The notes: a model not told the origin generated them from the letters alone. DNA of 32,000 bases from Trichodesmium erythraeum IMS101 (GCF_000014265.1 NC_008312.1:900001-932000), one strand, 5' to 3'; positions 1-25,475 are shown, counted from the first letter of the stretch. A program made the numbers and translations.

Positions 1-360
1 GCAGGGAATATCGAACAAAATGCTGGTAATAATACTAACCTAAATCAAACTGCAGGAGAGAATATAAATGTAGGGAATATCGAACAAAATGCGGGTAATA
101 ATACTAACCTAAATCAAACTGCAGGAGAGAATATAAATACAGGGGATATCGAACAAAATGCGGGTAATAATACTAACCTAAATCAAACTGCAGGAGAGAA
201 TATAAATACAGGGGATATCGAACAAAATGCGGGTAATAATACTAACCTAAATCAAACTGCAGGAGAGAATATAAATACAGGGGATATCGAACAAAATGCT
301 AGTAATAATACTAGTATTTATCAAATTGCAGAAGGAGAGATTAATACACCAGTCATTAAT
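1..360 (+). repeat. 69-nt (23-aa) tandem coding repeat, AGNNTNLNQTAGENINxGxIEQN type; array truncated by the window start
   Basis: Direct period check: gcagggaatatc at 1 and gtagggaatatc at 70. Unit starts at 22, 91, 160, 229, with a degenerate unit at 298. Confidence 0.9.
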
Positions 361-1950
361 CAAACTTTCGGTAATGAGACTACGCTCAATCAAATATCAG
401 TAAGAGATGTTAATACACCAGTAATTTCTAATAACAATATACCTAATAATCAAGGACTTAATCAAGAAAATTTCTCTAATAATAACAATAACAATATTGA
501 GAATAATTCCACTACAAATTCCTCAAACAATAAAAACATTTCATCAACCCTTACCCAGTCTCAAAGGTCTGAATTAATTTCAACTTCTACCCCCAGCAAC
601 AATAACCAAACAACTAATACAAATACAGCCCAAGAACAAACAGAATCATCTATTAATAGTACAACGGATACCCAAAAAATCTTAAACATAATTGATACCG
701 TCAATACCAATTCCTTGACAGTTGCGACTGGTTCAGACCAAGTAATAACAATGTTAGAACAAAACCTTACTAACGAATATTCTAATTACTTTGGAACAGA
801 TTTTAAGGAACAATTTATTAACCAAAAAACACCCCGAGAAATCTTAACCGATATGGCTGCTAAAACAGGAAAAGAATCTGCAGTTGTTTATATTAATGCT
901 TATCCAGAGGAATTACAAATAATTTTATATACCAAAGATGGTCAACCTATTCTTAAAACTATCCCGGAAGCTAACCGTAAAAAATTAGAGAAAGTAGTTA
1001 TAAATTTCCTCAAATTAACGACAAGTCCTGCCTATCGTGATTTTAATAGTTATCTATCACCAGCAAAACAATTATATGATTGGTTCATTGCACCTATATC
1101 AGCAGAATTAGAAGCAGCAAATATCGATACCTTATTGTTCAGTATGGGTGAAGGTTTACGTATTTTACCAGTGGCAGCATTACATGATGGAAAGCAATTT
1201 TTAATTGAGAAATATAGCCTAAGTTTAATTCCGAGTATCAGCTTAATGGATACAAATTATCGCCCACTTCAAGGTACTCAAGTATTAGCTATGGGAGCTA
1301 GTAAATTTATCAATGAAAAACCTTTACCAGCAGTACCTGTGGAGATAGAAACAATTTCTGAACAGTTATGGGAAGGTAGTAAATTTTTAAACGAAGAATT
1401 TACCAAGAATAATTTGTTAACTCAAAGAAAAAATTATCCCTATCCTATTATTCACTTAGCTACCCATGCAACATTTAATAGAGGAAAACCTAGTAATTCT
1501 TACATTCAGCTATGGGGTAATGAACAAATAAAGTTAGACCAAGTGCGGGAGTTGGGTTGGAGTACCCCATCGGTTGACTTGTTGGTATTGTCTGCTTGTC
1601 GCACTGCTGTAGGAAATAGAGAAGCGGAATTAGGGTTTGCAGGGTTAGCAGTAGCAGCGGGAGTGAAGTCAGCCTTAACGAGCCTTTGGACTGTAAGTGA
1701 TGAAGGGACATTGGCATTAATGACAGAGTTTTATACTCATTTGAATGATGCTAAGATCAAGTCAGAGGCATTAAGACAGGCGCAGTTAGCAATGCTGCAA
1801 GGGCAGGTGCTTATTACAGGTGGGGAGTTGAGGGGAAGCAGCACTCGTGGTGGGGTGGAGCTACCTTCGGCGTTCGCAAATGTAAACAATCAAAATTTAT
1901 CTCATCCTTATTACTGGGCAGGGTTTACTATAGTTGGTAGTCCTTGGTAA
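1..1950 (+). CDS. 3' part (649 codons plus stop) of giant TPS-CHAT exoprotein, array copy A; the 5' end lies outside the window
   Basis: Open in frame from nt 1. Position 1 corresponds to 10942 of copy B (offset 10941). The 411-aa tail in the ORF track is identical to the C-terminus of the 2629..12891 ORF. CHAT His at 1465-1467 and Cys at 1597-1599. Confidence 0.9.
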   Translation, partial: AGNIEQNAGNNTNLNQTAGENINVGNIEQNAGNNTNLNQTAGENINTGDIEQNAGNNTNLNQTAGENINTGDIEQNAGNNTNLNQTAGENINTGDIEQNASNNTSIYQIAEGEINTPVINQTFGNETTLNQISVRDVNTPVISNNNIPNNQGLNQENFSNNNNNNIENNSTTNSSNNKNISSTLTQSQRSELISTSTPSNNNQTTNTNTAQEQTESSINSTTDTQKILNIIDTVNTNSLTVATGSDQVITMLEQNLTNEYSNYFGTDFKEQFINQKTPREILTDMAAKTGKESAVVYINAYPEELQIILYTKDGQPILKTIPEANRKKLEKVVINFLKLTTSPAYRDFNSYLSPAKQLYDWFIAPISAELEAANIDTLLFSMGEGLRILPVAALHDGKQFLIEKYSLSLIPSISLMDTNYRPLQGTQVLAMGASKFINEKPLPAVPVEIETISEQLWEGSKFLNEEFTKNNLLTQRKNYPYPIIHLATHATFNRGKPSNSYIQLWGNEQIKLDQVRELGWSTPSVDLLVLSACRTAVGNREAELGFAGLAVAAGVKSALTSLWTVSDEGTLALMTEFYTHLNDAKIKSEALRQAQLAMLQGQVLITGGELRGSSTRGGVELPSAFANVNNQNLSHPYYWAGFTIVGSPW

Positions 1951-2205
1951 TAAAAATGACCAACTAACATTCAACATCTTCAAATGTAGTCAACTTATTC
2001 GTAATTTTTGGGTTCAGATCATGTGGATGTGTAATTAATTTTGTACGACGGCTTCTTTAGCAAACCCTAAATATTAATTGATAGAGGGAGGGATTTTTTG
2101 ATCACATTTGTTATGTGTTGTCAATTATCGACAAAATCTCAAAATATTTGTGTCAACGACAATATATCATTTAAACGTTGAAGCGTCAATAGTAGGAATA
2201 GCACT

Positions 2206-2460
2206 GATAATATTGACACTCTCAGTAGCGGTAGTAGTTTCACGGGTTTTGTTGAAATAACAGATACCAACAACTATTATCGCTTTTATCTAAGTGGGGA
2301 AAGGGAGTTTGAGCTTACTCTCAAGGACTTAAGCGGTTATGCATACGTATAATTACTCAGCAGCACTGGTGCTACTATCATTAGTTCTACCAAGACTGGT
2401 AGAAGTTCTGAGAGCATCAGTAAAACTTTTAATTCGGTTACATATCATAACCTTGGATGA
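2206..2460 (+). pseudogene. Relic of a pre-peptidase C-terminal (PPC)-like domain with an in-frame stop; part of the duplicated spacer
   Basis: Translation is DNIDTLSSGSSFTGFVEITDTNNYYRFYLSGEREFELTLKDLSGYAYV*LLSSTGATIISSTKTGRSSESISKTFNSVTYHNLG*. It has the PPC pattern (G-x-V..D..DYYRF.L......L.L..L..DADL.L......I..S...G..E.I...L..GTY) with TAA at 2350-2352. There is no start codon or upstream coding context. Confidence 0.55.
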
Positions 2461-2536
2461 AAAAGATACTAAATGGTTTCTATACAACAATTTCAAGACC
2501 CATAATTAAAATGACAAATAAATTTTAAATAATTTC

Positions 2537-2565
2537 TTGATTTTTGTATGGTAAGGATTTATAAT
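2537..2565 (+). promoter_or_regulatory. Candidate sigma70-type promoter for giant gene B
   Basis: TTGATT (2537-2542), 17-nt spacer, TATAAT (2560-2565), 67 nt upstream of ATG 2632. The region is AT-rich, so a chance match is plausible. Confidence 0.3.
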
Positions 2566-2631
2566 AATACCTATAAATTAAATAAAAGTCAATATAATTT
2601 TCAACAAATACCATAATAACAAAAACCTTTG

Positions 2632-2715
2632 ATGAAACCTAATAGCTCAAAACTCTGCACCATAACAGCTCTGAGTTTAATACTAGGCACATTAGCCACC
2701 ACTCCCGCTAACTCC
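2632..2715 (+). other. Sec-type signal peptide of copy B
   Basis: MKPNSSKLCTITALSLILGTLATTPANS|QP: basic N-region, hydrophobic core, small residues before the predicted cleavage site. Confidence 0.7.
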
Positions 2716-5700
2716 CAGCCCATAACCCCGGCTAAGGACGGTACCAATACTACTGTTACTCCACAGGGCCAACAATTTCATATTAAAGGTGGGACTCGCA
2801 GTGGTACTAATGTATTTCACAGCTTTGATAAGTTTAATGTGCACTCTGGTCAAACTGCCAACTTTGTCACGACCCCGGATACTCGCAACGTTCTCGGACG
2901 AGTTAAGGGAGGCGCTTCTTATATTAATGGTCTTATTCAGGTTCTAGGTAGCAGCTCTAACCTCTTCTTAATGAACCCCGCAGGCATAATGTTTGGCCCA
3001 AACGCCAGCCTCAATGTACCTGCGTCATTCAGTGTTACTACTGCTACTGGTATTGGTTTTGACCAGAATAATTTCTGGTTCAAGGCTATGGGCACTAATG
3101 ACTATTCAAATTTGCTCGGAAGCCCTAGTGGTTATAGGTTTGATGTTTCTAAACCTGGTTCTATTGTTAATGAAGGAAGTTTAACTTTAAATTCTGGAGA
3201 AAATTTAACTTTATTAGGGGGAACTGTTGTTAATACAGGGGAACTCTCTAGCCCTGGGGGTAATATTACTGTCACTGCTGTCGAAGGTGGTAGTACCCTG
3301 AAAATATCTCAACCAGGACATTTGTTAAGTTTAGAGGTACCCCTAGAGGATGGAGAAAATATTTCTAATATTGATCCTCTATCTTTACCAGAGTTATTAG
3401 CTGGTGGAGGAGATATCGTTGAGGCTACATCTGTTATTGTTAAAGAGAATGGTGATGTGGTTTTGACCGGTTCAAATACTATGGTGGCTGAGACTCCGGG
3501 AACGGCAACTATTTCGGGAAAGATAGATGTATCAACTACTGCTAGTTCTCTCCAAAATGAGGGGGGTGCTAGTTTTGGAGGCCAAGTTAATGTGTGGGGC
3601 GATCGCGTGGCTCTTATAGATACAAATATCAAGGCTGATGGCAAAAATGGGGGTGGAACTGTATTAATAGGAGGAGATTTTCAAGGGTTGGGTATAGTTC
3701 CTAATTCTCAGCATACTTTTGTTAATAATAATTCATTTATTTCTGCGGATGCTATCACAAATGGTGATGGAGGTCAAGTTAGAATTTGGTCGGATGGTAT
3801 TACTAATTTTGCGGGAAATATTAGTGCTAAAGGCGGCACATCTTCGGGAAATGGAGGGTTGGTTAAAATTGGGGGAAAAGAACAATTAATCTTTGATGGA
3901 AAGGTGGATGTTACTGCGGCTTTAGGGACTGAAGGTACGATTTTATTGGACCCAGAAAGTGTGACGGTGGGAGAGGATAATTCGGAAGGTGAAAAAGAAA
4001 TTGTAGATGATAATTCCGAGGTTTCTGAGACAGAAAATACTGATAATTATAATGGGGAAATTGTAGATGATAATTCGGAGGTTTCTGAGACAGAAAATAC
4101 TGATAATTTCAAAGACAAAAAACCAGACACTCCTAAAGACAAAAAACCAGACACTCCTCTTGATCCTTTTGCTGCTGATGAGAATTCTGATGTGACTATT
4201 TCGGCGGATAATTTAGGGGAATTATCGGGGAATGTGATTATTGATGCTGATAATGATATTACCATAAATGAAAGGATAGAAACTGATTCTTCTGTGGAGT
4301 TAAAGGCTGGTCGAAGTATTAATATAAATGCGGATATTGATACTAAGAGTGGAAATGGGAATATTGATTTATTGGGTAATAATGATGAGATGAATTTGGC
4401 GAACCGTTCTGATGGGAAAGGTTCAATAAATCAATTGGATGGAACAATTTTAAATGCTGGAAGTGGTGGAATTAATATTAAGTTGGGAAGTTTAGGGGAG
4501 GTAGGTGATATAAATCTGGGAAATTTAAGGACGACAGGGAAGGTTTTGGTTGATGCGAATGGGGGAAATATTGTTAGAGTTTCTGAGAATTCTTTGATAA
4601 ATGCGGGGAGTGTTTTGTTTAGAACTTCTGGGAATGGAGGTATAGGTTTTCTTGGTCAACCTTTGCGGTTAGATGTGCAGAATTTGGAGGCGGTTTCTGG
4701 TAGTGGTGGGGTGTTTTTTGATGTGGGAAATGTGAATATTGGTGGTGTGAGTGAGGATGTGGTTGGTATTGCTACTTTTGGAGGAGATGTTGATATTAAG
4801 AGTGCGGGAAATGTGACTTTAAATGAAACTATTTCTAGTAATGAGGTTGTGGAGAATAATTCTGAGGGGGGAACTACGGAAAATACGGAGGTTGTTGATG
4901 GAGGTGGTGGGATAAACATTGAAGCGGCGGGAGATATTGTGGCTACGGGTAGTGGTATTAAAGGTGGTGGGGAAGCTGTTTCTTTGTCTGGGACTAATAT
5001 TAGGATAAATGATGAATTTGATGAGACTTCTGGGGATGCGGATGTTAAGTTGTCGGCCACAAATGATATTGTTGTTGAGGATATAGAGGATGATGTGTTG
5101 GAGTTTATGCCTGGGAGTGGGGAGATAGAATTTCGTGCGGATAAAGATGGGGATGGGTTTGGTCTTGTGAAGATGTTGGATAATAAGCCGGATGTTGGGA
5201 GTAACCCTGATATTTTTGAGAATGGGGCGGATACTATTAAGACTAATGGGCGAGGTTTGACTATTGCTGGTGCTGGTCTGGTTTTGGGGAATGTTGATAC
5301 TTCTTGGTTGCCTATTTATTCTGGTGGTGGGGAGTTGTTGAAGGCGATCGATGTGGATAAGGGGGGGGCGATACCTCCGGAAGGTACAGAAGGTACTGCA
5401 ACATTTACTTTTACTGTAGATGGTGACTTGGGAACTGTAGAAAATATAGATGTTCGCTTTTCTGCGGCACATACTTGGGATGAGGACTTAGACGTTAGTC
5501 TGGAATCACCCCAAGGGAAGGTAGTACAATTGTTTTCACGCGTTGGTGGTAGTGGAGAGAACTTTCAGGATACTGTGTTGGATGATGATGCTTCTAGAAG
5601 AATTATCAGTGGCAATGCTCCGTTTGATGGTACATATCGTCCCCAAGGAAGTTTAGCAGATTTTAATGGAGAAAATCCTAATGGAGCTTGGACTTTGAAG

Positions 5701-12891: not shown

Positions 12892-13146
12892 TAAAAATGA
12901 CCAACTAACATTCAACATCTTCAAATGTAGTCAACTTATTCGTAATTTTTGGGTTCAGATCATGTGGATGTGTAATTAATTTTGTACGACGGCTTCTTTA
13001 GCAAACCCTAAATATTAATTGATAGAGGGAGGGATTTTTTGATCACATTTGTTATGTGTTGTCAATTATCGACAAAATCTCAAAATATTTGTGTCAACGA
13101 CAATATATCATTTAAACGTTGAAGCGTCAATAGTAGGAATAGCACT

Positions 13147-13401
13147 GATAATATTGACACTCTCAGTAGCGGTAGTAGTTTCACGGGTTTTGTTGAAATA
13201 ACAGATACCAACAACTATTATCGCTTTTATCTAAGTGGGGAAAGGGAGTTTGAGCTTACTCTCAAGGACTTAAGCGGTTATGCATACGTATAATTACTCA
13301 GCAGCACTGGTGCTACTATCATTAGTTCTACCAAGACTGGTAGAAGTTCTGAGAGCATCAGTAAAACTTTTAATTCGGTTACATATCATAACCTTGGATG
13401 A
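13147..13401 (+). pseudogene. Second copy of the PPC-like domain relic (spacer of unit 2)
   Basis: Same sequence as 2206-2460 shifted by 10941. Confidence 0.55.
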
Positions 13402-13477
13402 AAAAGATACTAAATGGTTTCTATACAACAATTTCAAGACCCATAATTAAAATGACAAATAAATTTTAAATAATTTC

Positions 13478-13506
13478 TTGATTTTTGTATGGTAAGGATT
13501 TATAAT
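13478..13506 (+). promoter_or_regulatory. Candidate sigma70-type promoter for giant gene C
   Basis: Same TTGATT-17-TATAAT element as 2537-2565, shifted by 10941. Confidence 0.3.
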
Positions 13507-13572
13507 AATACCTATAAATTAAATAAAAGTCAATATAATTTTCAACAAATACCATAATAACAAAAACCTTTG

Positions 13573-16500: not shown

Positions 16501-19500
16501 GATGGTGACTTGGGAACTGTAGAAAATATAGACGTTCGCTTTTCTGCGGCATATACTCACACTGGGGACTTAGACGTTAGTCTGGAATCACCCCAAGGGA
16601 AGGTAGTACAATTGTTTGCAGGTGTTGGTCGTTGGGGAGATAACTTTCAGGATACTGTGTTAGATGATAATGCTTCTAGAAGTATTGGCATAAGCAATGC
16701 TCCGTTTGATGGTAGATATAGTCCCCAAGGAAGTTTAGTAGATTTTAATGGAGAAAATCCTAAGGGAATTTGGACTTTGAAGGTAAAGGATACCAATATA
16801 TTTTCAAATTTGGCTGATGGTAATTTATACAGAGCTGGTGAGACTGCTCCCTGGGGAACTGCCATAGGTACACAACTGTTGCTGCATAACCCTCTTGTTA
16901 AGATTGCTGGAGGAATAGAAAGTGGAAAAGGTGGAGCGATCAACCTAGAAGCAACTCATGGTGATATTAGTGTGGGAAATATTCGTAGTTTGAGCGAAGC
17001 TGCTAATGGGGGAAGAATTGACCTGAATGCTAATAAGGATATTATTACTGGTCTGATTAATTCTAGTTCTGCTTCTGTGCAAGGAAATGGAGGAGCAATT
17101 GATTTGGATGCTGGTGGCAATATCACTACACAATCCCTCAATTCTAGGTCCTATTCCTGGGAAGGCAACTCAGGAAATGGAGGAACCATTGATTTGGATG
17201 CTGGAGGCAATATCACTACACAATCTCTCTATTCCAGCTCCTATTCCGGGTCTGGCAACTCAGGAGATGGAGGAGCAATTGATTTGGATGCTGGTGGTGA
17301 TATCACTACTACACAAGACCTTGATTCCAGCTCCTATTCCTGGGAAAGCAACTTAGGAAATGGAGGAGCAATTGATTTGGATGCTGGTGGCAATATCACT
17401 ACACAAGTCCTTGATTCCAGATCCTTTTCCTGGGAAGGCAACTCAGGAAATGGAGGAGCAATTGATTTGGATGCTGGTGGCAATATCACTACACAAATCC
17501 TTGATTCCTGTTCCTATTCCGGGTCTTACGACTCAGGAAATGGAGGAGCAATTGATTTGGTAGCTGGCGGCGATATCACTACACAAAACCTCTATTCCGA
17601 TTCCTTTTCCAGGTCTGGCAACTCAGGAAATGGAGGAGCAATTGATTTAGTAGCTGGTGGCGATATCACTATACAAGACCTCTATTCCTTCTCCTATTCA
17701 GGATCTGGCAACTCAGGAAATGGAGGAGACATAACACTGAATGCAAAACAAATTAACCCTCCAGAAGACGGAAATGCAGAAAAACTAACAATCTATACAT
17801 TTTCAGCAGGAAAAAAAGAATCTGAGGAAGGAAAAGGTGGAGACGTTAACATTACCACCAACAATCTCAGCAACACAGACATATTAACACTATCCTCCCA
17901 CTCTGGATCAGGGAAAGTAACAATAGAAAGTCAGACACAAGAACCACTTCAAATAAAAGACTCATCCATTATTACTAGTGAAAAAATAACAATAACAATG
18001 CCTTGGGGTGAAGAAATACAAGTTGAAACAGGAGATACCCAATCAGGGGACGTCTCCATTAACAGTTCCGGCGACCTCAACCTCAGCAACGTCACCATAG
18101 AAAGCGACACCGAAAGTAACCAAGCCGCCGGAGACGTCAACATCTACAGCCGCGGCAACATCACACTCGAAAACACCGACATCATCAGCACCACCAACTC
18201 CCAAGGCAACGCCGGCCAAATCACCTTAGAAAGCAACCAAAACATAGAACTCACCAACAACAGCAAAATCCTAGCCAACACAGAAGGAACCGGAAACGCA
18301 GGTCAAATAAACATAGAAGCCAACAAACTCATCCTAGACCAAAACACCAAACTAATCACAGAAACCGCAAGAGCTGGAAACCCCGGAAACATAAACATCC
18401 AAGCCAACACCATAGACATAGGAGAAGGCGCTAAAGCCAGCACCACAGTCTTAACAGGTTCAACCAGCACCGGAGAAGGAGGCAACATCACCATCAACAC
18501 AAACGAACTCAACGTCACAGGAAAACTCGGAATATTTGCCGAAACCGAAGCGAGCAAAAACGCCGGTATCCTTCGCATCTCACCCTACAAAAACAACCCC
18601 GACCTAGACATCACCTTCAAAAACGAGGGCTTCATCTCCGCCTCCACCTCATCCACAGGCAACGGAGGCAACATATTCATCAAAGCCCCAGAAAACATCA
18701 ACATAACAGGCCAAGGGTTCATTGCCACCAAAACATCAGGCACAGGTAACGCCGGAATTATCGACATCAAAACCAACAACCTGAGAATATCCAATGGAGT
18801 CAAAATCAATGCTTCCACAGAAGACCAAGGCAACGCCGGCGAAATCAAAATCAACACCACAGACTTCACCCTAGAAAAAGGAACAAGTCTAACAACAGAA
18901 ACCAGCAGCGCCGGACTAGCCGGAAACATAGAAATAAACACCAAAAACCTCACAATAGGACAAAACGCCCAAATAAGTGCCACAGCACTAGAAGGAGCCA
19001 GCAACAAAGAAGCAGGAGGCAACATCACCATCAACGCCAATAACCTAGACATATCAGGAAAACTAGGAATATTCGCGGAAACCGCAGGAGAAAGCCCTGC
19101 AGGCACCCTCACCCTGAACCCATATAAAAACAACCCCAACCTAAATATAGAATTCAAAGAAAAAGGCTTCATTTCTGCTCGCACCACCTCCAGTGGCAAC
19201 GGAGGCAACATAAATATTCAAGCACCAGAAAAAATCAACATTACAGGAGACGGAAAAATATCAGCCGAAACCACAGGGAGTGGAAATGCAGGCACCATCA
19301 ATATCCAAACAGAAAACCTCAACCTATCAGAGCAAGTAGCCATAAGTGCCGAAACCAACAGTCAAGGTCAAGCCGGAAACATTGAAATTAACTCCCAAAC
19401 AGTTACCATAGGAAAAGGCACAGAAATAAGTGCAACAGCCGGAAAAAAAGCAACAAGCACCGGAGATGGAGGCAACATCACCATCAACACCAACGACCTA

Positions 19501-22500
19501 GAAATCTCAGGAAAACTAGGAATATTCGCCGAAACCAAAGGAGCATCAAACGCCGGAACCTTAACCATCACCCCTTACCAAACCAACCCAGACCTCAATA
19601 GCAAAACCGACCCAAACATCAATATTACCTTCACCGACCAAGGCTTCATTTCTGCTAGCACCAAATCTCTGGGAAAGGGAGGCGACATCAATATATTGGC
19701 ACCAGAAAACATAAATATTACAGGAGATGGTCGGATAACAGTTGAAAGCGAAGGTAGTGGAGATGCAGGCATTATTAACATTGAAACAGAAAACCTGACA
19801 ATAGCCGAAAACACAAAAATATCAGCATCCACATCCGACAGCGGAAACGGAGGCGAAATCAAAATTAACTCTAGCGAAACATTCCAACTACAAGGCCGAA
19901 TATTAACAGAAACCACAGGAACAGGAGATGGAGGCATTATCAATATTGAAGCAGGAGAAATAACTGCGCCTAACAGCAAGATATCAGCTAAAACTACCGA
20001 CGCCGGCAACGCAGGTACAATAGATATTACTGCCCAAGGAGATATTACCACAGGAGTTGTTACCTCCGCCGCCAAAAATGACATAGAAACCGCTGACGGA
20101 GGTAGCATTAGTATTACCAGTGAACAAGGAAAAATTAACGCCACCCGAGCAATTCAATCATTTTCAGAAGGAGGGAACGCCGGAAATGTTACCCTCAAAG
20201 CCCAAACAGACATAACCGCCAATACCATAAGTTCTCACGGAAAGCAAGAGGGTGGTCAAATAACCATCAGATCAGAAACCGGAAATATTGACACCAGTAG
20301 TGGTAAATTCTTAGCCAACTATTCAGGAGGCGGTGACGCGGGAGACATTACAATGGAAGCACCCCAAGGAAATATTACCACAAATAATATCTATTCCTAC
20401 GCCGACGGAGACGGAGGTCAAATAAACATTAAAGCCGGAAACAATATTAATATAGAAGGAAAAAGTAATATTATTTCCGCATCCAAGTCACCAAGTGATG
20501 GTAGCAGTGATATGCCAGGAAAAGGAGGAGATATTACTCTAGAAGCAGGCAATAATATTAATACCAGAACAGCAAAAATATATTCCGGTGCGAACGAGGG
20601 CGATACAGGAAAAATTGATATTACTGCAGATAATGCAATAGAAACAGGTAAAATAGACTTAGTATCAGGTTTTGTCAAAGAAAAAGAAAAAGTCAACGAA
20701 AACTTTACTATTATTCCCAAAGGAGAAGGAGAAGCAACTCAAGGAAAAGCTGGAGACATCAGACTCCGCAGCAGAAACAGTACAATAGATACCACAGGCG
20801 GCACAATAAATTCTCGTTCCCCAGACGGCACCGGAAATATTATTATCAATGCCAAAGGAAATATTAGCACAGGGAAATTAGAAGCCAGCGCCCTTAACCC
20901 AGACAAGCCTACCACAGGTGGAGACGTTAATATTACCAGCGAGCAAGGAGAAATTAATGCAACTCAAAACATAGAAACCTTCTCAGAACAAGGTATAGCA
21001 GGAGATGTAAATATTACTGCCTTTGGTCAGATCCAGACAAATAACATTAGTTCCCAGGGAATGAAACGGGGAGGTGATATTAATATCAGGAGTGATAGTG
21101 AAAGTAGTATAGATGCAGCAGGAGTATTACAAACATATTCAGATGCAGGAACAGCAGGAAATGTCAACCTCACATCCCCAGGGGATGTTAATATTAGCGG
21201 CATTCGTTCAGAAGGAATGGAGCAGGGAGGTGATATTAATATTAGGAGTGAACGGGGAGAAATTAACTCCACAGGTGATATAGACTCCTATTCAAAACAA
21301 GGAAAAGGAGGATACGTCAAGGTAGATGCCCTAGAAAGAGTAAATTTAGCAAATGTATCATCCTACGGCATGACAGAAAGTGGTGACTTAATTATTCAGA
21401 GCCAACAAGCAAAAGTTAACACAGGCAATGTCACAACACAAGCTTTAGAGGGAAAGAGTGGACGTATAGTCATCAACGGAACAGAAGTAGGTACAGGAAA
21501 CTTAAGTTCTATCGGCACAACAAGCGCCGGAGAAATTAAAGTCACAGCCACAGATGGTTCCATAAAAACCTATAATGTAGAAATAAGATCAGATGGCACA
21601 ATAGGAGTTTTAAGCCTGAAAGCAACAGAAGATATTAACACAGGAGACCAAACAGCTATTGCTGGAGAGGGTGATGTTTTTATTGATAACGATGCTGGAG
21701 ATGACCTGACCACAGGAGACCAAACGGCCATTACTGGAGAGGGTGATGCTTTTATTGATAACGATGCCGGAGATGACCTGACCACAGGAGACCAAACAGC
21801 TATTACTGGAGGGGGTGATGTTTTTATTGATAACGATGCCGGAGATGACCTGACCACAGGAGACCAAACAGCTATTACTGGAGGGGGTGATGCTTTTATT
21901 GATAACCATGCCGGAGATGAACTGACCACAGGAGACCAAACAGCTATTACTGGAGGGGGTGATGCTTTTATTGATAACGATGCCGGAGATGACCTAACCA
22001 CAGGAGAGAAAACAGTTATTACTGGAAATGTTACTGCTACTGTAACTAATTTTATTCAAAATGATGGAGTGGATCAAAATCTAGATACTACTGTAACTAA
22101 TTTTATTCAAAATGATGGAGTGAATCAAAATCTAGATACTACCTCAGTAATTTCTAATAACAATATACCTAATAATCAAGTACTTAATCAAGAAAATTTC
22201 TCTAATAATAACAATAACAATATTGAGAATAATTCCACTACAAATTCCTCAAACAATAAAAACATTTTATCAAATCTTACCCAGTCTCAAAGATCTGAAT
22301 TAATTTCAAATTCTACCCTCAGCAACAATAACCAAACAACTAATACAAATACAGCCCAAGAACAAACAGAATCATCTATTAATAGTACAACGGATACCCA
22401 AAAAATCTTAAACATAATTGATACCGTCAATACCAATTCCTTGACAGTTGCGACTGGTTCAGACCAAGTAATAACAATGTTAGAACAAAACCTTACTAAC

Positions 22501-23676
22501 GAATATTCTAATTACTTTGGAACAGATTTTAAGGAACAATTTATTAACCAAAAAACACCCCGAGAAATCTTAACCGATATGGCTGCTAAAACAGGAAAAG
22601 AATCTGCAGTTGTTTATATTAATGCTTATCCAGAGGAATTACAAATAATTTTATATACCAAAGATGGTCAACCTATTCTTAAAACTATCCCGGAAGCTAA
22701 CCGTAAAAAATTAGAGAAAGTAGTTATAAATTTCCTCAAATTAACGACAAGTCCTGCCTATCGTGATTTTAATAGTTATCTATCACCAGCAAAACAATTA
22801 TATGATTGGTTCATTGCACCTATATCAGCAGAATTAGAAGCAGCAAATATCGATACCTTATTGTTCAGTATGGGTGAAGGTTTACGTATTTTACCAGTGG
22901 CAGCATTACATGATGGAAAGCAATTTTTAATTGAGAAATATAGCCTAAGTTTAATTCCGAGTATCAGCTTAATGGATACAAATTATCGCCCACTTCAAGG
23001 TACTCAAGTATTAGCTATGGGAGCTAGTAAATTTATCAATGAAAAACCTTTACCAGCAGTACCTGTGGAGATAGAAACAATTTCTGAACAGTTATGGGAA
23101 GGTAGTAAATTTTTAAACGAAGAATTTACCAAGAATAATTTGTTAACTCAAAGAAAAAATTATCCCTATCCTATTATTCACTTAGCTACCCATGCAACAT
23201 TTAATAGAGGAAAACCTAGTAATTCTTACATTCAGCTATGGGGTAATGAACAAATAAAGTTAGACCAAGTGCGGGAGTTGGGTTGGAGTACCCCATCGGT
23301 TGACTTGTTGGTATTGTCTGCTTGTCGCACTGCTGTAGGAAATAGAGAAGCGGAATTAGGGTTTGCAGGGTTAGCAGTAGCAGCAGGAGTGAAGTCAGCC
23401 TTAACGAGCCTTTGGACTGTAAGTGATGAAGGTACATTGGCATTAATGACAGAGTTTTATACTCATTTGAATAATGTCAGTATTAAAGCAGAAGCGTTAA
23501 GACAGGCGCAGTTAGCAATGTTGCAAGGGCAGGTGCTTATTACAGGTGGGGAGTTGAGGGGAAGCAGCACTCGTGGTGGGGTGGAGCTACCTTCGGCGTT
23601 CGCAAATGTAAACAATCAAAATTTATCTCATCCTTATTATTGGGCAGGGTTTACTATGGTTGGTAGTCCTTGGTAA
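13573..23676 (+). CDS. Giant secreted TPS-domain / beta-helix / P-domain / CHAT-protease protein, array copy C (3367 aa from ATG 13573; in-frame TTG at 13570), a mosaic paralogue of copy B
   Basis: Uninterrupted 10.1-kb ORF with the same domain order as copy B. Long tracts are identical to B, interleaved with diverged patches. Confidence 0.95.
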   Translation: MKPNSSKLCTITALSLILGTLATTPANSQPITPAKDGTNTTVTPQGQQFHIKGGTRSGTNVFHSFDKFNVHSGQTANFVTTPDTRNVLGRVKGGASYINGLIQVLGSSSNLFLMNPAGIMFGPNASLNVPASFSVTTATGIGFDQNNFWFKAMGTNDYSNLVGNPSGYRFDVSKPGSIVNEGNLTLKPQGNLTLSGGTVVNTGELSSPGGNITVTAVEGGSTLKISQPGHLLSLEVPLEDGENISNIDPLSLPELLAGGGDIVEATSVVVKENGDVVLNGSNTMVAETPGTATISGKIDVSTTATSLKEKGRVPSQRKKEGAASPGKIDVPPSLKEKRDVAKAGKVNVWGDRVALIDTNIKADGKNGGGTVLIGGDFQGLGIVPNSQHTFVNNNSFISADAITNGDGGQVRIWSDGITNFAGNISAKGGTSSGNGGLVKIGGKEQLIFDGKVDVTAALGTKGRILLDPESVTVGEDNSEGEKEIVEDNSEVSETENTDNYDGEIIEDNSEVSETENTDNYNGEIVEDNSEVSETENTDNSTTKNTDNLEDKETENPLDPFAADENSDVTISADNLGELSGNVIIDADNDITINERIETDSSVELKAGRSININADIDTKSGNGNIDLLGNNDEMNLANRSDGKGSINQLDGTILNAGSGGINIKLGSLGEVGDINLGNLRTTGKVLVDANGGNIVRVSENSLINAGSVLFRTSGNGGIGFLGQPLRLDVQNLEAVSGSGGVFFDVGNVNIGGVSEDVVGIATFGGDVDIKSAGNVTLNETISSNEVVENNSEGGTTENTEVVDGGGGINIEAAGDIVATGSGIKGGGEAVSLSGTNIRINDEFDETSGDADVKLSATNDIVVEDIEDDVLEFMPGSGEIEFRADKDGDGFGLVKMLDNKPDVGSNPDIFENGADTIKTNGRGLTIAGAGLVLGNVDTSWLPIYSGGGELLKAIDVDEGGPIPPEGTEGTTTFTFTVDGDLGTVENIDVRFSAAYTHTGDLDVSLESPQGKVVQLFAGVGRWGDNFQDTVLDDNASRSIGISNAPFDGRYSPQGSLVDFNGENPKGIWTLKVKDTNIFSNLADGNLYRAGETAPWGTAIGTQLLLHNPLVKIAGGIESGKGGAINLEATHGDISVGNIRSLSEAANGGRIDLNANKDIITGLINSSSASVQGNGGAIDLDAGGNITTQSLNSRSYSWEGNSGNGGTIDLDAGGNITTQSLYSSSYSGSGNSGDGGAIDLDAGGDITTTQDLDSSSYSWESNLGNGGAIDLDAGGNITTQVLDSRSFSWEGNSGNGGAIDLDAGGNITTQILDSCSYSGSYDSGNGGAIDLVAGGDITTQNLYSDSFSRSGNSGNGGAIDLVAGGDITIQDLYSFSYSGSGNSGNGGDITLNAKQINPPEDGNAEKLTIYTFSAGKKESEEGKGGDVNITTNNLSNTDILTLSSHSGSGKVTIESQTQEPLQIKDSSIITSEKITITMPWGEEIQVETGDTQSGDVSINSSGDLNLSNVTIESDTESNQAAGDVNIYSRGNITLENTDIISTTNSQGNAGQITLESNQNIELTNNSKILANTEGTGNAGQINIEANKLILDQNTKLITETARAGNPGNINIQANTIDIGEGAKASTTVLTGSTSTGEGGNITINTNELNVTGKLGIFAETEASKNAGILRISPYKNNPDLDITFKNEGFISASTSSTGNGGNIFIKAPENINITGQGFIATKTSGTGNAGIIDIKTNNLRISNGVKINASTEDQGNAGEIKINTTDFTLEKGTSLTTETSSAGLAGNIEINTKNLTIGQNAQISATALEGASNKEAGGNITINANNLDISGKLGIFAETAGESPAGTLTLNPYKNNPNLNIEFKEKGFISARTTSSGNGGNINIQAPEKINITGDGKISAETTGSGNAGTINIQTENLNLSEQVAISAETNSQGQAGNIEINSQTVTIGKGTEISATAGKKATSTGDGGNITINTNDLEISGKLGIFAETKGASNAGTLTITPYQTNPDLNSKTDPNINITFTDQGFISASTKSLGKGGDINILAPENINITGDGRITVESEGSGDAGIINIETENLTIAENTKISASTSDSGNGGEIKINSSETFQLQGRILTETTGTGDGGIINIEAGEITAPNSKISAKTTDAGNAGTIDITAQGDITTGVVTSAAKNDIETADGGSISITSEQGKINATRAIQSFSEGGNAGNVTLKAQTDITANTISSHGKQEGGQITIRSETGNIDTSSGKFLANYSGGGDAGDITMEAPQGNITTNNIYSYADGDGGQINIKAGNNINIEGKSNIISASKSPSDGSSDMPGKGGDITLEAGNNINTRTAKIYSGANEGDTGKIDITADNAIETGKIDLVSGFVKEKEKVNENFTIIPKGEGEATQGKAGDIRLRSRNSTIDTTGGTINSRSPDGTGNIIINAKGNISTGKLEASALNPDKPTTGGDVNITSEQGEINATQNIETFSEQGIAGDVNITAFGQIQTNNISSQGMKRGGDINIRSDSESSIDAAGVLQTYSDAGTAGNVNLTSPGDVNISGIRSEGMEQGGDINIRSERGEINSTGDIDSYSKQGKGGYVKVDALERVNLANVSSYGMTESGDLIIQSQQAKVNTGNVTTQALEGKSGRIVINGTEVGTGNLSSIGTTSAGEIKVTATDGSIKTYNVEIRSDGTIGVLSLKATEDINTGDQTAIAGEGDVFIDNDAGDDLTTGDQTAITGEGDAFIDNDAGDDLTTGDQTAITGGGDVFIDNDAGDDLTTGDQTAITGGGDAFIDNHAGDELTTGDQTAITGGGDAFIDNDAGDDLTTGEKTVITGNVTATVTNFIQNDGVDQNLDTTVTNFIQNDGVNQNLDTTSVISNNNIPNNQVLNQENFSNNNNNNIENNSTTNSSNNKNILSNLTQSQRSELISNSTLSNNNQTTNTNTAQEQTESSINSTTDTQKILNIIDTVNTNSLTVATGSDQVITMLEQNLTNEYSNYFGTDFKEQFINQKTPREILTDMAAKTGKESAVVYINAYPEELQIILYTKDGQPILKTIPEANRKKLEKVVINFLKLTTSPAYRDFNSYLSPAKQLYDWFIAPISAELEAANIDTLLFSMGEGLRILPVAALHDGKQFLIEKYSLSLIPSISLMDTNYRPLQGTQVLAMGASKFINEKPLPAVPVEIETISEQLWEGSKFLNEEFTKNNLLTQRKNYPYPIIHLATHATFNRGKPSNSYIQLWGNEQIKLDQVRELGWSTPSVDLLVLSACRTAVGNREAELGFAGLAVAAGVKSALTSLWTVSDEGTLALMTEFYTHLNNVSIKAEALRQAQLAMLQGQVLITGGELRGSSTRGGVELPSAFANVNNQNLSHPYYWAGFTMVGSPW
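13660..14289 (+). other. TPS / haemagglutination-activity domain, copy C
   Basis: The first ~160 residues are identical to copy B. Small substitution patches follow (NLVGNPSGY, EGNLTLKPQGNLTLSGG). Confidence 0.85.
15019..15190 (+). repeat. Acidic 60-nt coding repeat (EI(V/I)EDNSEVSETENTDNY.G) x3
   Basis: Unit starts at 15019, 15079 and 15139. That is one unit more than copy B, and the KDKKPDTP repeats are replaced by STTKNTDNLEDKETENP. Confidence 0.85.
16474..16885 (+). other. P-domain, copy C (strongly diverged from copy B)
   Basis: GTTTFTFTVDGDLGTVENIDVRFSAAYTHTGDLDVSLESPQGKVVQLFAGVGRWGDNFQDTVLDDNASRSIGISNAPFDGRYSPQGSLVDFNGENPKGIWTLKVKDTNIFSNLADGNL. Confidence 0.8.
17083..17745 (+). repeat. 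90/93-nt tandem coding repeat, 7 full units plus a terminal degenerate unit (versus 9 in copy B)
   Basis: G(N/D)GG(A/T)IDL unit starts at 17083, 17173, 17263, 17356, 17446, 17536 and 17626; the terminal GNGGDITL is at 17716. Units differ from one another more than those in copy B do. Confidence 0.9.
18478..19958 (+). repeat. Three tandem ~150-180-aa macro-modules (counterpart of 7570-9050)
   Basis: Protein is near-identical to copy B across this tract. Confidence 0.8.
21640..22030 (+). repeat. 72-nt (24-aa) acidic tandem coding repeat, 5 units plus 1 degenerate unit: TGDQTAITG(E/G)GD(A/V)FIDNDAGDDLT
   Basis: Unit starts at 21640, 21712, 21784, 21856 and 21928, with a degenerate unit at 22000. 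It occupies the position of the 69-nt Asn/Gln-rich array of copies A and B. Confidence 0.95.
22039..22140 (+). repeat. 51-nt (17-aa) coding repeat x2: TVTNFIQNDGV(D/N)QNLDT
   Basis: actgtaactaattttattcaaaatgatggagtg occurs at 22039 and 22090. Confidence 0.85.
22585..23673 (+). other. CHAT (caspase-like) protease domain, copy C
   Basis: Same motifs as copy B, with His codon 23191-23193 and Cys codon 23323-23325. There are a few substitutions near the 3' end (NNVSIKAEAL versus NDAKIKSEAL; FTMVG versus FTIVG). Confidence 0.85.
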
Positions 23677-23967
23677 TAAAAATGGCCAACTAATATTCAA
23701 CATCACCAACAATGTCGACCCCGACGAGGATGGCAATAAGGCCTTTACTATTGATGGCGATCGCCTCCTAGTTAACGACAGTGACGACCTAAATTATGAA
23801 ACTAACCCCATTCTCAATATTACCATTGAAGCTAGTGATAGGGAATTGACTGATGCAGCTTTATGTCTGGACTAGCAATTCTGAGGGTGTGGAAATCTGG
23901 GGATGCTCTGTTACCTCTGGAACAGGAATTTAATATTGACCTGAATGGAGACGATATAATTTTCTAG
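23660..23967 (+). pseudogene. Frameshifted relics of the 3' end of a cadherin-repeat-type exoprotein gene
   Basis: Frame 2 (23660-23875) reads ...GNKNGQLIFNITNNVDPDEDGNKAFTIDGDRLLVNDSDDLNYETNPILNITIEASD..., which is cadherin-repeat-like (F.I....L.V...LDYE....L.I.A.D). Frame 1 (23857-23967) reads SFMSGLAILRVWKSGDALLPLEQEFNIDLNGDDIIF*, resembling the Trp-rich ...DLNGDG.IG C-terminal modules of large cyanobacterial exoproteins. It overlaps the stop of gene C and has no credible start. Confidence 0.5.
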
Positions 23968-24129
23968 TACTCATTCCTATGCACATAGGTTAGGCGATTA
24001 AAAAATTATAATGCACAAAAGGGGGTAATATCATCTCCAGATAATCAGTGATCAAAAAGTATATGGTTTGTAGTAGGGCAAGGGCCTTATCTGCACTTAG
24101 GGCTTTGACCTTATTACAAACTTTAATTA

Positions 24130-25412: not shown

Positions 25413-25443
25413 TTGACATTATGACAATTCTAAGCTGTAAAAT
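25413..25443 (+). promoter_or_regulatory. Candidate promoter for the 25476 gene
   Basis: Perfect -35 TTGACA (25413-25418). -10 candidates are TGTAAA (25436-25441, 17-nt spacer) or TAAAAT (25438-25443). Lies ~35 nt upstream of the ATG. Confidence 0.3.
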
Positions 25444-25475
25444 TATATCTAAAAATCTTAGAGAAAGGTAAAATT

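What the first reader, a model, noticed from the sequence alone, without database searches (positions are those of the whole stretch)
1..23706. Tandem array of at least three ~10.9-kb giant-gene units with identical spacers; two members look indistinguishable and the third is a mosaic
Seen in sequence: gene starts at 2629 and 13570 are exactly 10941 nt apart. Sequence 1-2628 (tail of copy A plus spacer) matched 10942-13569 (tail of copy B plus spacer) in every nucleotide line I spot-checked, and the 411-aa tails are identical in the ORF track. Copy C shares its first ~480 nt, a 1.2-kb tract (4159-5350 = 15241-16432) and most of 7.7-9.2 kb with B. It differs in discrete patches and by indels, so the offset drifts 10941 -> 11022 -> 11082 -> ... 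-> 10785. Inference: either a very recent duplication (A/B) on top of an older one (C), or ongoing gene conversion that homogenises some segments and spares others. The window begins inside copy A, so the array may be longer. More than 10 kb of identical direct repeats should drive copy-number change by unequal recombination. They are also a classic source of assembly collapse or expansion.
Basis: partly seen in the sequence, partly recalled or inferred. Interest (0 to 1): 0.7.

Follow-up and report, generated by a model that had tools for sequence, protein, structure and literature searches.

The report
Tandem giant secreted-protease genes, gene-converted
This stretch of the Trichodesmium erythraeum IMS101 chromosome carries at least three head-to-tail copies of a 10-kb gene for a giant secreted fibre protein ending in a caspase-like protease, and the copies keep overwriting parts of each other; it is a clear but ordinary case of paralogue gene conversion in a protein family whose function nobody has tested.

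Summary
Window 1-2628 equals 10942-13569 with no mismatch, and the perfect repeat runs on to 3114. Copies B (2632-12891) and C (13573-23676) are 93.8% identical overall. Seven perfect tracts of 283-1204 nt cover 45% of B. They alternate with patches of 80-95% identity and one cassette that has been swapped. Permutation, zero synonymous divergence inside the tracts, and a paralogue-versus-orthologue comparison all point to gene conversion.

The window is T. erythraeum IMS101. B is ABG50017.1 and C is ABG50018.1 / WP_044136324.1. Each protein has a signal peptide, a two-partner-secretion (TPS) domain, about 2,700 residues of beta-strand repeats with a P-domain, a disordered linker, and a C-terminal CHAT caspase-like protease with an invariant His/Cys. 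The only cysteine in mature B is the catalytic one. The TPS-repeat-CHAT architecture is widespread in databases but functionally uncharacterised.

Tandem pairs also occur in Okeania and Dapis, so the tandem arrangement is real. Short-read assemblies break here. No TpsB transporter and no immunity gene lies nearby. The claim that A and B are "indistinguishable" holds only for the visible 2.6 kb. Verdict: a new member of a known kind, of moderate interest.

The parts
1..1950 (+). 3' end of copy A (frame open from base 1; 649 codons plus stop)
   Evidence: Identical to B's tail 10942-12891.
1951..2628 (+). Spacer 1 (678 nt). It contains a PPC-like coding relic at 2182-2457 and a conserved promoter-like leader at 2502-2628.
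   Evidence: Identical to spacer 2. No ORF longer than 56 aa, no Rfam match and no terminator-like site, all scanned on the identical copy, spacer 2.
2632..12891 (+). Copy B, 3,419 aa. It is ABG50017.1 / WP_011610411.1 / Q118Q7, annotated 'filamentous haemagglutinin family outer membrane protein', T. erythraeum IMS101.
2737..3372 (+). TPS (two-partner secretion) domain of B, aa 36-247. The same domain lies in C at about 13678-14313.
   Evidence: Pfam PF05860, E=2.8e-38. The AF2 model matches only TpsA secretion domains: EtpA 8cpk, HMW1 2odl, HxuA 4i84, HpmA 4w8r.
5440..5742 (+). Proprotein-convertase P-domain-like module of B, aa 937-1037 (C: about 16522-16800). It lies in the only region where dN/dS is about 1.0-1.4.
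   Evidence: Pfam PF01483, E=1.5e-9. dN/dS.
5988..6821 (+). Array of 90-nt (30-aa) repeats with unit GNGGAIDLDAGGDITTQ... There are 9.2 copies in B. The C counterpart at 17082-17728 has 7.2 copies.
   Evidence: TRF; units printed.
10831..11254 (+). A/B-type pre-CHAT cassette: 69-nt (23-aa) repeat AGNNTNLNQTAGENINTGDIEQN, 6 copies. The same cassette lies in A at 2-313.
11674..12888 (+). CHAT protease module of B, the last 405 aa (Pfam CHAT covers aa 3124-3417). His3255/His3259 map to 12394-12396 and 12406-12408. Cys3303 maps to 12538-12540. The same module is in A at 733-1947 and in C at 22459-23673.
   Evidence: Pfam PF12770, E=5e-71. AF2 pLDDT above 90. Foldseek hits to Csx29 TPR-CHAT (E=2.6e-14), separase, DdvA and SAVED-CHAT. 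H/H/C invariant in 30 homologues.
12892..13569 (+). Spacer 2, identical to spacer 1. The PPC-like relic with an in-frame stop lies at 13123-13398.
   Evidence: Relic: tblastx to a PPC protein in L030 (E=7e-6) and BLASTP to the PPC gene of L030 (42% over 36 aa, E=2e-6), but no Pfam hit.
13443..13569 (+). Conserved 127-nt leader with TTGATT-17-TATAAT at 13478-13506. The copy upstream of B is at 2502-2628.
   Evidence: About 91% conserved upstream of family members in two other Trichodesmium MAG contigs that have different upstream contexts.
13573..23676 (+). Copy C, 3,367 aa. It is WP_044136324.1; the GenBank version ABG50018.1 / Q118Q6 is annotated 69 aa shorter.
21639..22142 (+). C-type pre-CHAT cassette: 72-nt (24-aa) acidic repeat TTGDQTAITGGGDAFIDNDAGDDL, 5.4 copies, followed by a 51-nt repeat, 2.1 copies. 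It is unrelated to the A/B cassette.
   Evidence: Copy number differs in a TARA contig.
23677..23706 (+). Right edge of the repeated unit: a roughly 30-nt trailer still shared with the start of the spacers.

Best explanation
The locus is a head-to-tail array of at least three paralogous genes in Trichodesmium erythraeum IMS101. Copy A is partial in the window; B and C are complete.

Each gene encodes a roughly 3,400-residue exoprotein of the two-partner-secretion (type Vb, TpsA) kind. It consists of:
- a Sec signal peptide and a TPS domain;
- a long beta-strand-repeat shaft with a P-domain-like insert and two internal tandem-repeat arrays;
- a disordered Asn/Thr-rich linker;
- a C-terminal CHAT (caspase/separase-like, clan CD) cysteine protease module with an intact His/Cys dyad.

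Shown: the copies evolve in concert. Recombination between paralogues (gene conversion, possibly with unequal crossing-over) has made 45% of B and C base-for-base identical in seven tracts, among them the secretion domain and the protease. Other segments are spared: the P-domain region, the 30-aa repeat array and parts of the shaft. The pre-CHAT repeat cassette is of two unrelated types, neutral 23-aa in A and B and acidic 24-aa in C.

Each gene carries its own conserved promoter-like leader. The duplicated unit is the gene plus a 678-nt spacer that holds a decayed accessory-gene fragment.

Inferred, not shown: after Sec export, a TpsB/Omp85 transporter encoded elsewhere threads the protein across the outer membrane, where it folds into a beta-helical fibre. 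The invariant CHAT module then either cleaves the protein itself (maturation or release, in the position of the FhaB prodomain) or acts on an external or periplasmic substrate. The array would supply several fibre variants with the same export signal and the same protease but different shaft surfaces.
For: Identity of the locus: exact protein look-up gives IMS101 ABG50017.1 and ABG50018.1 / WP_044136324.1.

Architecture:
- Pfam TPS E=2.8e-38, P_proprotein E=1.5e-9, CHAT E=5e-71.
- The AF2 model of the N-terminus matches only TpsA secretion domains in the PDB.
- The AF2 model of the C-terminus (pLDDT above 90 for residues 115-519) matches Csx29, separase, DdvA and SAVED-CHAT.
- His/His/Cys are invariant in 30 homologues.
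- Mature B has a single Cys, the catalytic one.

Gene conversion:
- Runs of 1204, 1065 and 892 identical nt, against a permutation maximum of 225.
- pS = 0 in the tracts and 0.07-0.29 in the patches.
- All CDS indels preserve the reading frame.
- Paralogues B, C and L029 are 100% identical where C's orthologue L035 is 98%. In the 12600-12711 patch C equals its orthologue and B equals L029.

The tandem arrangement is real:
- Okeania L008 has a pair at 11.7-12.2 kb offset and 73-89% identity. Dapis L009 and L011 have pairs at 10.1 and 11.2 kb offset.
- Copy C plus its right flank is recovered at 99-100% identity in five independent short-read assemblies, plus a sixth TARA contig (L035) that spans C's last ~2 kb and ~0.7 kb beyond the stop.
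- A k=141 contig ends 140 nt inside a perfect tract.

Own promoter: the conserved leader with its -35/-10 match.

Family size: 4,984 representatives at 50% clustering match the CHAT module at E<=1e-30. Of the best 148, 93 have a TPS N-terminus, with lengths of 537-3,633 aa.

Precedent: cyanobacterial TpsB genes with several tandem TpsA-like substrates (Nostoc All5110-All5116), and a TpsA-TpsB fusion in T. erythraeum, Tery_3487 (PMC2878562).
Against: - No TpsB gene lies in the 8.3 kb downstream of the array, nor next to relatives in more than ten other loci. Secretion by a TpsB is therefore inferred from the TPS domain alone.
- The region upstream of copy A is outside the window, so copy number and A's 5' 8.3 kb are unknown.
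- The A = B identity could not be checked against reads. The spacer has no match in any fetched locus.
- The dispersed paralogue L029 comes from a short-read MAG, whose path through a repeat may be chimeric.
- No expression, secretion or protease data exist for this family.
- NCBIfam has no model for it.
- The N-terminal structure model is only moderately confident (mean pLDDT 65).
Confidence: 0.77

Rival explanations
1. Assembly artefact. The A = B identity, and perhaps some of the B = C perfect tracts, arose because the 2006 Sanger assembly mis-joined or averaged reads from near-identical repeats. On this view the true locus has a different copy number or a more even divergence.
For: Perfect repeats of 3,114 nt and 1,204 nt exceed Sanger read length. 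Every short-read assembly examined fails here. The spacer was not found in any independent contig.
Against: Tandem pairs of the same family occur in Okeania and Dapis assemblies. C-specific variants at 12600-12711 recur in an independent TARA contig. A k=141 contig from another population ends exactly k-1 nt inside the 22320-23384 tract, as expected if that tract really is multi-copy there. The B/C differences are frame-preserving and include whole swapped cassettes.
Confidence: 0.1
2. Simple duplication history without gene conversion. A/B would be a very recent duplicate and C an older one, and the mosaic would reflect unequal selective constraint along the gene.
For: A and B are identical wherever both are visible. 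Conserved domains (TPS, CHAT) fall inside perfect tracts.
Against: Synonymous divergence is exactly 0 across 4.7 kb of tracts and up to 0.29 in adjacent patches, which constraint on the protein cannot produce. Tract lengths exceed every one of 5,000 permutations. In the tract, paralogues are closer to each other than C is to its orthologue, and the reverse holds in the patch.
Confidence: 0.05
3. Contact-dependent inhibition (CdiA-like) toxin array. The fibre would deliver its C-terminal domain into neighbouring cells, and the array would serve to diversify toxins.
For: The protein has a TPS domain and a giant beta-strand shaft with an enzymatic C-terminus. Recombination among cdiA copies and orphan cassettes is known (PMC5422565).
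Against: The C-terminal module is the most conserved part, not the variable one. There is no VENN-type motif at a C-terminal boundary; the only VENN is at aa 740. No ORF longer than 56 aa follows the gene, so there is no candidate immunity gene. No cdiB/tpsB gene is adjacent.
Confidence: 0.07
4. Targeted hypermutation by a diversity-generating retroelement (known in T. erythraeum) produces the divergent patches.
For: T. erythraeum carries DGRs, and CHAT proteins can be DGR targets in other multicellular bacteria (PMC10907252).
Against: The B/C mismatch spectrum is not adenine-specific: C>T 63, G>A 60, C>A 47, A>G 45, and so on. The patches contain indels and whole repeat-unit changes. No reverse transcriptase or template repeat is in the window.
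Confidence: 0.01

Closest known systems
Cyanobacterial TpsA-like 'hemagglutinin' gene clusters, such as Nostoc PCC 7120 All5110-All5115 with the TpsB All5116; T. erythraeum Tery_3487 TpsA-TpsB fusion (Arnold et al. 2010, PMC2878562)
   Same: Several adjacent genes carry an N-terminal haemagglutination/TPS domain in a filamentous cyanobacterium. No functional data exist for them either.
   Different: Here no TpsB lies beside the array within the window. The proteins are about 3,400 aa and end in a CHAT protease. The copies are near-identical mosaics rather than merely related neighbours.
Bordetella FhaB/FHA
   Same: It is a giant TpsA with a beta-helical shaft and a C-terminal region of several hundred residues that is not part of the shaft. 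In FhaB this prodomain stays periplasmic and controls maturation (PMC4542190, PMC8263021, listed).
   Different: The FhaB prodomain is not a protease, and processing is done by SphB1, DegP and others. fhaC is adjacent to fhaB. FhaB is not in a tandem array.
CdiA/BcpA contact-dependent inhibition proteins and meningococcal TpsA cassettes (PMC5422565, PMC3848433)
   Same: They have a TPS domain and a giant filament, and their genes are remodelled by homologous recombination with neighbouring repeats.
   Different: In CDI the C-terminus is the polymorphic part, it follows a VENN-type motif and is paired with an immunity gene. Here the C-terminus is the homogenised part, and no immunity ORF or demarcation motif is present.
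CHAT-domain proteases: Csx29 (TPR-CHAT, Craspase), separase, SAVED-CHAT, the Myxococcus anti-sigma factor DdvA, HetF
   Same: They share the fold (Foldseek E from 2.6e-14 to 2e-7). The match extends over about 385 columns, including the region N-terminal to the Pfam CHAT domain. The His/Cys dyad is conserved.
   Different: Sequence identity is only 10-15%. Most of the known examples are cytoplasmic regulators activated by partners (RNA-guided complex, securin, cyclic nucleotides). This one sits at the end of a Sec/TPS-exported fibre.
LepA of Pseudomonas aeruginosa (a TpsA that is a protease) and the HMW1A/HMW2A paralogous TpsA adhesins of Haemophilus influenzae
   Same: LepA is a precedent for a protease exported by the TPS route. 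HMW1A/HMW2A are a precedent for highly similar TpsA paralogues that vary in repeat number.
   Different: The protease class differs. HMW1 and HMW2 sit at separate loci, each with its own TpsB.
Concerted evolution of tandem paralogues by interlocus gene conversion (general phenomenon, e.g. PMC2720389, PMC3966223)
   Same: [quoted passage not shown]
   Different: Nothing differs in principle. The notable points are the unit size (10.9 kb) and that the genes are bacterial giant genes.

Membership tests
TpsA (type Vb / two-partner secretion substrate) | N-terminal Sec signal peptide | tested here: met
   Read directly from the sequence: MKPNSSKLCTITALSLILGTLATTPANSQ|PITP, with a charged N-region, a hydrophobic core and an A-x-S-Q end. 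No signal-peptide predictor was available.
TpsA (type Vb / two-partner secretion substrate) | TPS secretion domain with an NPNG-type motif | tested here: met
   Pfam PF05860 E=2.8e-38 for B and 2.9e-37 for C. The motif NPAGIMF lies at aa 115. The AF2 model matches only the EtpA, HMW1, HxuA and HpmA secretion domains. An exact NPNL motif was not found in the TPS domain.
TpsA (type Vb / two-partner secretion substrate) | Long beta-helical repeat passenger | tested here: inconclusive
   The shaft is Gly/Asn/Thr/Ser/Ile-rich with 23-30-aa periodic repeats, and relatives are named 'beta strand repeat-containing'. The shaft was not modelled and no Pfam repeat family matched.
TpsA (type Vb / two-partner secretion substrate) | Cognate TpsB (POTRA + Omp85 barrel) transporter, usually adjacent | tested here: not met
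   None lies in window 23677-32000 or next to relatives in L007, L010, L031-L034, L037-L044, L047, L052, L054, L056 and L060. The region upstream of copy A and the rest of the genome could not be read. The literature reports TpsB-type proteins in T. erythraeum.
CHAT domain (clan CD caspase-like cysteine peptidase) | Sequence match to PF12770 above the curated cut-off | tested here: met
   239.8 bits against a cut-off of 24; E=5e-71.
CHAT domain (clan CD caspase-like cysteine peptidase) | Caspase/separase-like fold | tested here: met
   The AF2 model has pLDDT above 90 over residues 115-519. Foldseek gives probability 1.00 for Csx29, separase, DdvA and SAVED-CHAT, with weaker hits to caspases and gingipain.
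CHAT domain (clan CD caspase-like cysteine peptidase) | Catalytic His and Cys conserved | tested here: met
   H3255 and H3259 (HLATHA) and C3303 (LSACRT) are invariant in 30 homologues. Catalysis itself is not testable here.
CdiA-type contact-dependent inhibition toxin | Variable C-terminal toxin after a VENN-type motif, followed by an immunity gene, with cdiB adjacent | tested here: not met
   The C-terminus is the most homogenised part. The only VENN is at aa 740. The largest spacer ORF is 56 aa. No cdiB is present.
Paralogue array under concerted evolution (interlocus gene conversion) | Identical tracts longer than expected from the overall divergence | tested here: met
   Runs of 1204, 1065 and 892 nt against a maximum of 225 nt in 5,000 permutations.
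Paralogue array under concerted evolution (interlocus gene conversion) | Homogeneity extends to synonymous sites | tested here: met
   pS = 0 in the tracts and 0.07-0.29 in the neighbouring 100-codon blocks.
Paralogue array under concerted evolution (interlocus gene conversion) | Paralogues more alike than orthologues in converted tracts | tested here: met
   In the CHAT region B = C = L029 at 100%, against 98% for C and its TARA orthologue L035. The pattern reverses in the 12600-12711 patch. Caveat: L029 and L035 are short-read contigs, and only the 3' 1.5 kb could be compared.
DGR variable region | Adenine-specific substitutions relative to a template repeat, with a reverse transcriptase nearby | tested here: not met
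   The mismatch spectrum is unbiased, and no RT is in the window.

The most novel reading that the evidence does not exclude
The TPS-shaft-CHAT fibres may be an uncharacterised cell-surface system of filamentous cyanobacteria. In this reading a caspase-like protease is presented on, or delivered from, a giant beta-helical stalk to neighbouring trichomes, epibionts or grazers, for kin recognition, colony (puff/tuft) cohesion or triggered cell death. The tandem array would work as a recombination engine. It keeps the export signal and the protease uniform while shuffling shaft and pre-CHAT cassettes, which come in two unrelated types here, to vary surface specificity.
Probability: 0.1. Interest if true: 0.75.

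Novelty: new member of a known kind. Interest (0 to 1): 0.4.

Why it matters
- Genome quality. This locus and its relatives are a systematic blind spot. Almost every Trichodesmium, Okeania and Dapis assembly holds only fragments, so gene counts, pangenome comparisons (for example the reported enrichment of 'CHAT/haemagglutination' proteins in T. thiebautii) and expression mapping for this family are unreliable without long reads.
- Evolution. It is a clean bacterial example of concerted evolution in 10-kb genes. Conversion tracts of up to 1.2 kb coexist with spared, cassette-like segments.
- Biology. The TPS-CHAT architecture is abundant: thousands of 50%-identity clusters, mostly at the C-terminus of TPS proteins. 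It has never been studied, and it pairs an export route known from adhesins and toxins with a caspase-like protease in organisms noted for multicellularity and programmed cell death. That makes it a reasonable target for experiment, although nothing here shows what it does.

Tried and rejected
- Exact-product look-ups of B and C in the contig index found nothing, because IMS101 is not in that index. The upstream part of the array could therefore not be fetched.
- The word-indexed protein search timed out with the full-length query. Otherwise it returned only proteins of up to about 1,400 aa, so copy A's full product could not be retrieved.
- An exact-pattern scan of JGI metagenomes for the spacer/start junction gave 0 hits. 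The protein-based scan gave 21 loci, none with a CHAT tail upstream of the TPS start. Independent confirmation of the A/B-type junction in Trichodesmium therefore failed.
- TpsB was sought in the window and beside relatives and was not found.
- The DGR idea was rejected on the mismatch spectrum.
- The CDI idea was rejected on motif, immunity ORF and the pattern of variability.
- Rfam gave no match in the window, and no terminator-like site was found in the spacer.
- NCBIfam gave no family. A PDB sequence search with the CHAT region gave no hit at E<=0.01; only fold comparison worked.
- The PPC-like relic in the spacer got no Pfam support and rests on weak pairwise matches.
- Literature searches found nothing for TPS+CHAT, for the accession numbers, or for giant genes in Trichodesmium.
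Full report
**Observation.**
- Window 1-2628 and 10942-13569 are identical at every base. The perfect repeat at offset 10,941 continues to position 3114, so it covers A tail + spacer + B head and equals B tail + spacer + C head.
- The two long ORFs begin at TTG 2629 and TTG 13570. The biologically sensible starts are the ATGs one codon later (MKPNSSKL...).
- A's frame is open from base 1, and its 649-codon tail equals B's. The '411-aa tail' is only how an ORF lister cuts it.
- A global alignment of the B and C units shows seven perfect tracts: 486, 343, 1204, 389, 892, 283 and 1065 nt. Together they make up 4,662 nt, or 45% of gene B. They are separated by patches of 80-95% identity and by one region (10723-11290) of about 55% identity.
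- All indels inside the CDS preserve the reading frame.
- The offset drifts 10941 -> 11022 -> 11082 -> 10908 -> 10785, as reported.
- Homology stops about 30 nt after C's stop codon.

**Is the mosaic more than chance or constraint?** Three tests say yes.
- There are 610 mismatches in 9,916 ungapped columns. In 5,000 random placements the longest identical run was 225 nt (357 nt if the hypervariable cassette is excluded). The observed runs are 1204, 1065 and 892 nt.
- Nei-Gojobori estimates in 100-codon blocks give pS = 0 in the tracts and 0.07-0.29 in the flanking patches. Purifying selection on the protein cannot explain that. Overall dN/dS is 0.62. It reaches 1.0-1.4 only at aa 901-1100, which is the P-domain region.
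- The last 1.5 kb of B and C was aligned with a dispersed paralogue from the near-identical GBRTRLIN201 MAG (L029, next to lplA/glnA), with C's orthologue in a TARA contig (L035), and with two further relatives. Over about 600 nt of the CHAT region B, C and L029 are 100% identical, while L035 is 98% identical to C. In the 12600-12711 patch C carries the L035 states and B carries the L029 states. Paralogues closer than orthologues in some segments, and the reverse in others, is the signature of concerted evolution by gene conversion. It appears to reach a copy outside the array. L029 and L035 are short-read contigs, so this test is suggestive rather than final.
- The substitution spectrum is not adenine-biased, which excludes a diversity-generating retroelement.

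**Source and reality of the array.**
- Exact protein look-up identifies the window as the T. erythraeum IMS101 chromosome. B is ABG50017.1 / WP_011610411.1 / Q118Q7. C is WP_044136324.1 (GenBank version ABG50018.1). The flanking DUF1517 and HisG proteins are ABG50020.1 and ABG50023.1.
- B's record lists no second GenBank accession, and its UniRef100 cluster has n=1. Copy A's product is therefore probably not identical to B along its whole length. The A = B claim holds only for the 2.6 kb that can be seen.
- The right flank plus the 3' end of C is recovered at 99.6-100% identity in five independent short-read assemblies, each of which stops inside C. One MEGAHIT k=141 contig stops at 23244. That is exactly 140 nt inside the perfect tract whose edge is 23384, as expected when the tract is multi-copy in that population too.
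- Nearly all database relatives from Trichodesmium, Okeania, Dapis and Hydrocoleum are 'partial'.
- Tandem pairs of the same family exist in Okeania sp. SIO3I5 (offset 11.7-12.2 kb, 73-89% identity) and in Dapis sp. BLCC M126 (offsets 10.1 and 11.2 kb). The tandem arrangement is therefore an inherited feature of this clade and not an IMS101 assembly accident.
- What could not be confirmed independently is the A/B-type tail-spacer-head junction. The spacer matches nothing in any fetched locus, and two metagenome scans did not recover it.

**What the genes encode.** From N- to C-terminus, B has the following parts.
- A Sec-type signal peptide.
- A TPS secretion domain at aa 36-247 (Pfam E=2.8e-38), with an NPAGIMF motif. 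An AlphaFold model built on 32 homologues has only moderate confidence (mean pLDDT 65; the core is above 85). Even so, it matches only TpsA secretion domains in the PDB: EtpA, HMW1, HxuA and HpmA.
- A long Gly/Asn/Thr/Ser/Ile-rich shaft of beta-strand repeats, with a proprotein-convertase P-domain-like insert at aa 937-1037.
- A 30-aa tandem array, with 9.2 units in B and 7.2 in C.
- Just before the C-terminal module, a repeat cassette of two unrelated kinds. A and B have six 23-aa units (AGNNTNLNQTAGENINTGDIEQN). C has five acidic 24-aa units (TTGDQTAITGGGDAFIDNDAGDDL) plus a 17-aa (51-nt) repeat. Both cassette types occur in other strains, and the C-type copy number differs in a TARA contig.
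- A disordered Asn/Thr-rich linker of about 110 aa.
- A 405-aa module modelled with pLDDT above 90. Its best structural matches are Csx29 TPR-CHAT of Craspase (E=2.6e-14), separase, DdvA and SAVED-CHAT. Pfam CHAT scores E=5e-71. His3255, His3259 and Cys3303 are invariant in 30 homologues. Cys3303 is the only cysteine in the mature B protein. (That cysteine-poor composition suits a protein exported unfolded is my own reading, not a tool result.)

**Surroundings.**
- The 678-nt spacer has no ORF above 56 aa, no Rfam match and no terminator-like site.
- Its last 127 nt carry a TTGATT-17-TATAAT match. They are about 91% conserved upstream of family members in two other Trichodesmium MAG contigs that differ further upstream. 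Each unit therefore probably has its own promoter.
- The middle of the spacer reads in one frame as a PPC-like domain fragment interrupted by a stop (no Pfam support). Intact RTX and PPC genes follow paralogues in T. erythraeum 21-75 and in a station-5 MAG. The repeated unit seems to include the wreck of an accessory gene.
- No TpsB transporter lies in the 8.3 kb downstream (DUF1517, Rieske oxygenase, HisS, HisG, pentapeptide protein), nor beside relatives in more than ten other loci.
- The literature records TpsB-type proteins in T. erythraeum, including a TpsA-TpsB fusion (Tery_3487). It also records Nostoc operons with several tandem TpsA-like genes and one TpsB, and it states that no functional data exist for cyanobacterial TPS systems (PMC2878562; PMC3297439).

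**How it most likely works.**
- Shown: the array structure, the domain composition, the intact catalytic dyad, and the conversion mosaic.
- Inferred from the established behaviour of TPS domains: Sec export, recognition by a TpsB encoded elsewhere, translocation, and folding into a surface or released beta-helical fibre.
- The role of the CHAT module is open. Because it is the most strictly homogenised part and no immunity gene follows it, a CdiA-like polymorphic-toxin role is unlikely.
- Two readings remain. In one, the module acts as a cis-acting maturation or release protease, occupying the position of the FhaB prodomain. In the other, it is a conserved effector protease displayed on variable stalks.
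- Conversion keeps the export signal and the protease uniform. The shaft segments, the P-domain region and the cassettes stay different, so the cell would have several fibre variants.

**Comparison and novelty.**
- The CHAT module has 4,984 cluster representatives at E<=1e-30. All of the best 148 carry it at the extreme C-terminus, and 93 of them begin with a TPS domain, with lengths from 537 to 3,633 aa. The architecture is therefore common in databases.
- No paper in the searchable library combines CHAT with TPS. One preprint merely notes that such large repeat-rich proteins are enriched in T. thiebautii.
- The genes themselves have been annotated since 2006.
- Concerted evolution of tandem paralogues and recombination among TpsA genes are both well known.
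- I therefore class the finding as a new member of a known kind. It is a good example with practical consequences for assembly, sitting in an unstudied protein family. It is not a new mechanism.

Noticed in passing
window 24640-25080 (ORF 24892-25005, minus strand): This is an IS630-type transposase HTH remnant (MPYNLDFRQKVINFVENGGTITEAAHVFGIGITSIYR). In one metagenome contig (L001, 99.6% identical flank) the sequence left of 24630 is replaced by an 89% inverted second copy of this element followed by AlaDH and SpoU genes, with no giant gene. That is either a strain-level rearrangement removing the array from this flank or a chimeric short-read contig.
   Followed up: partly
window 23660-23875 (+): A 71-aa ORF overlaps copy C's stop and has a weak cadherin-like match (Pfam E=0.0033, below the cut-off). 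It may be a second decayed accessory-gene fragment, different from the PPC-like relic that follows copies A and B.
   Followed up: no
window 13123-13398 and 2182-2457: The spacer reads in one frame as a PPC (pre-peptidase C-terminal)-like domain fragment with an in-frame stop. Intact RTX and PPC genes follow paralogues in T. erythraeum 21-75 (L030) and in a station-5 MAG (L036).
   Followed up: partly
L043 and L060 (metagenome contigs JAAUYJ010056365.1 and JAAUYL010046813.1), compared with window 27460-31248: In a related organism (hisS/hisG 88-91% identical in DNA) a family member sits directly downstream of hisG. That is the opposite side of the hisS-hisG block from the IMS101 array. The neighbourhood seems to be a recurrent home for this family but has been rearranged.
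   Followed up: partly
L002 (MEGAHIT k141 contig), ending at window 23244: The contig stops exactly 140 nt (k-1) inside the B = C perfect tract 22320-23384. This is an indirect sign that the tract is multi-copy in a natural population as well.
   Followed up: yes
copy B aa 3303 (window 12538-12540); copy C aa 1313 and 3251: After signal-peptide removal B contains a single cysteine, the CHAT catalytic Cys. C has one additional Cys in the 30-aa repeat array.
   Followed up: yes
L029 (GCA_018457135.1 contig JAGGDU010000168.1, positions 1-1755): A further family member lies at a separate locus next to lplA and glnA in the GBRTRLIN201 MAG, which is 100% identical to IMS101 in the array's right flank. 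Its tail is itself a mosaic relative to B and C: 84% identity in one 200-nt block and 100% over about 600 nt.
   Followed up: partly
window 5332-5931 (copy B aa 901-1100): This is the only part of the B/C comparison with dN/dS of 1 or more (1.44 and 1.02 in two 100-codon blocks). It coincides with the P-domain-like insert. The cause may be relaxed or diversifying selection, but the number of sites is too small to tell.
   Followed up: no
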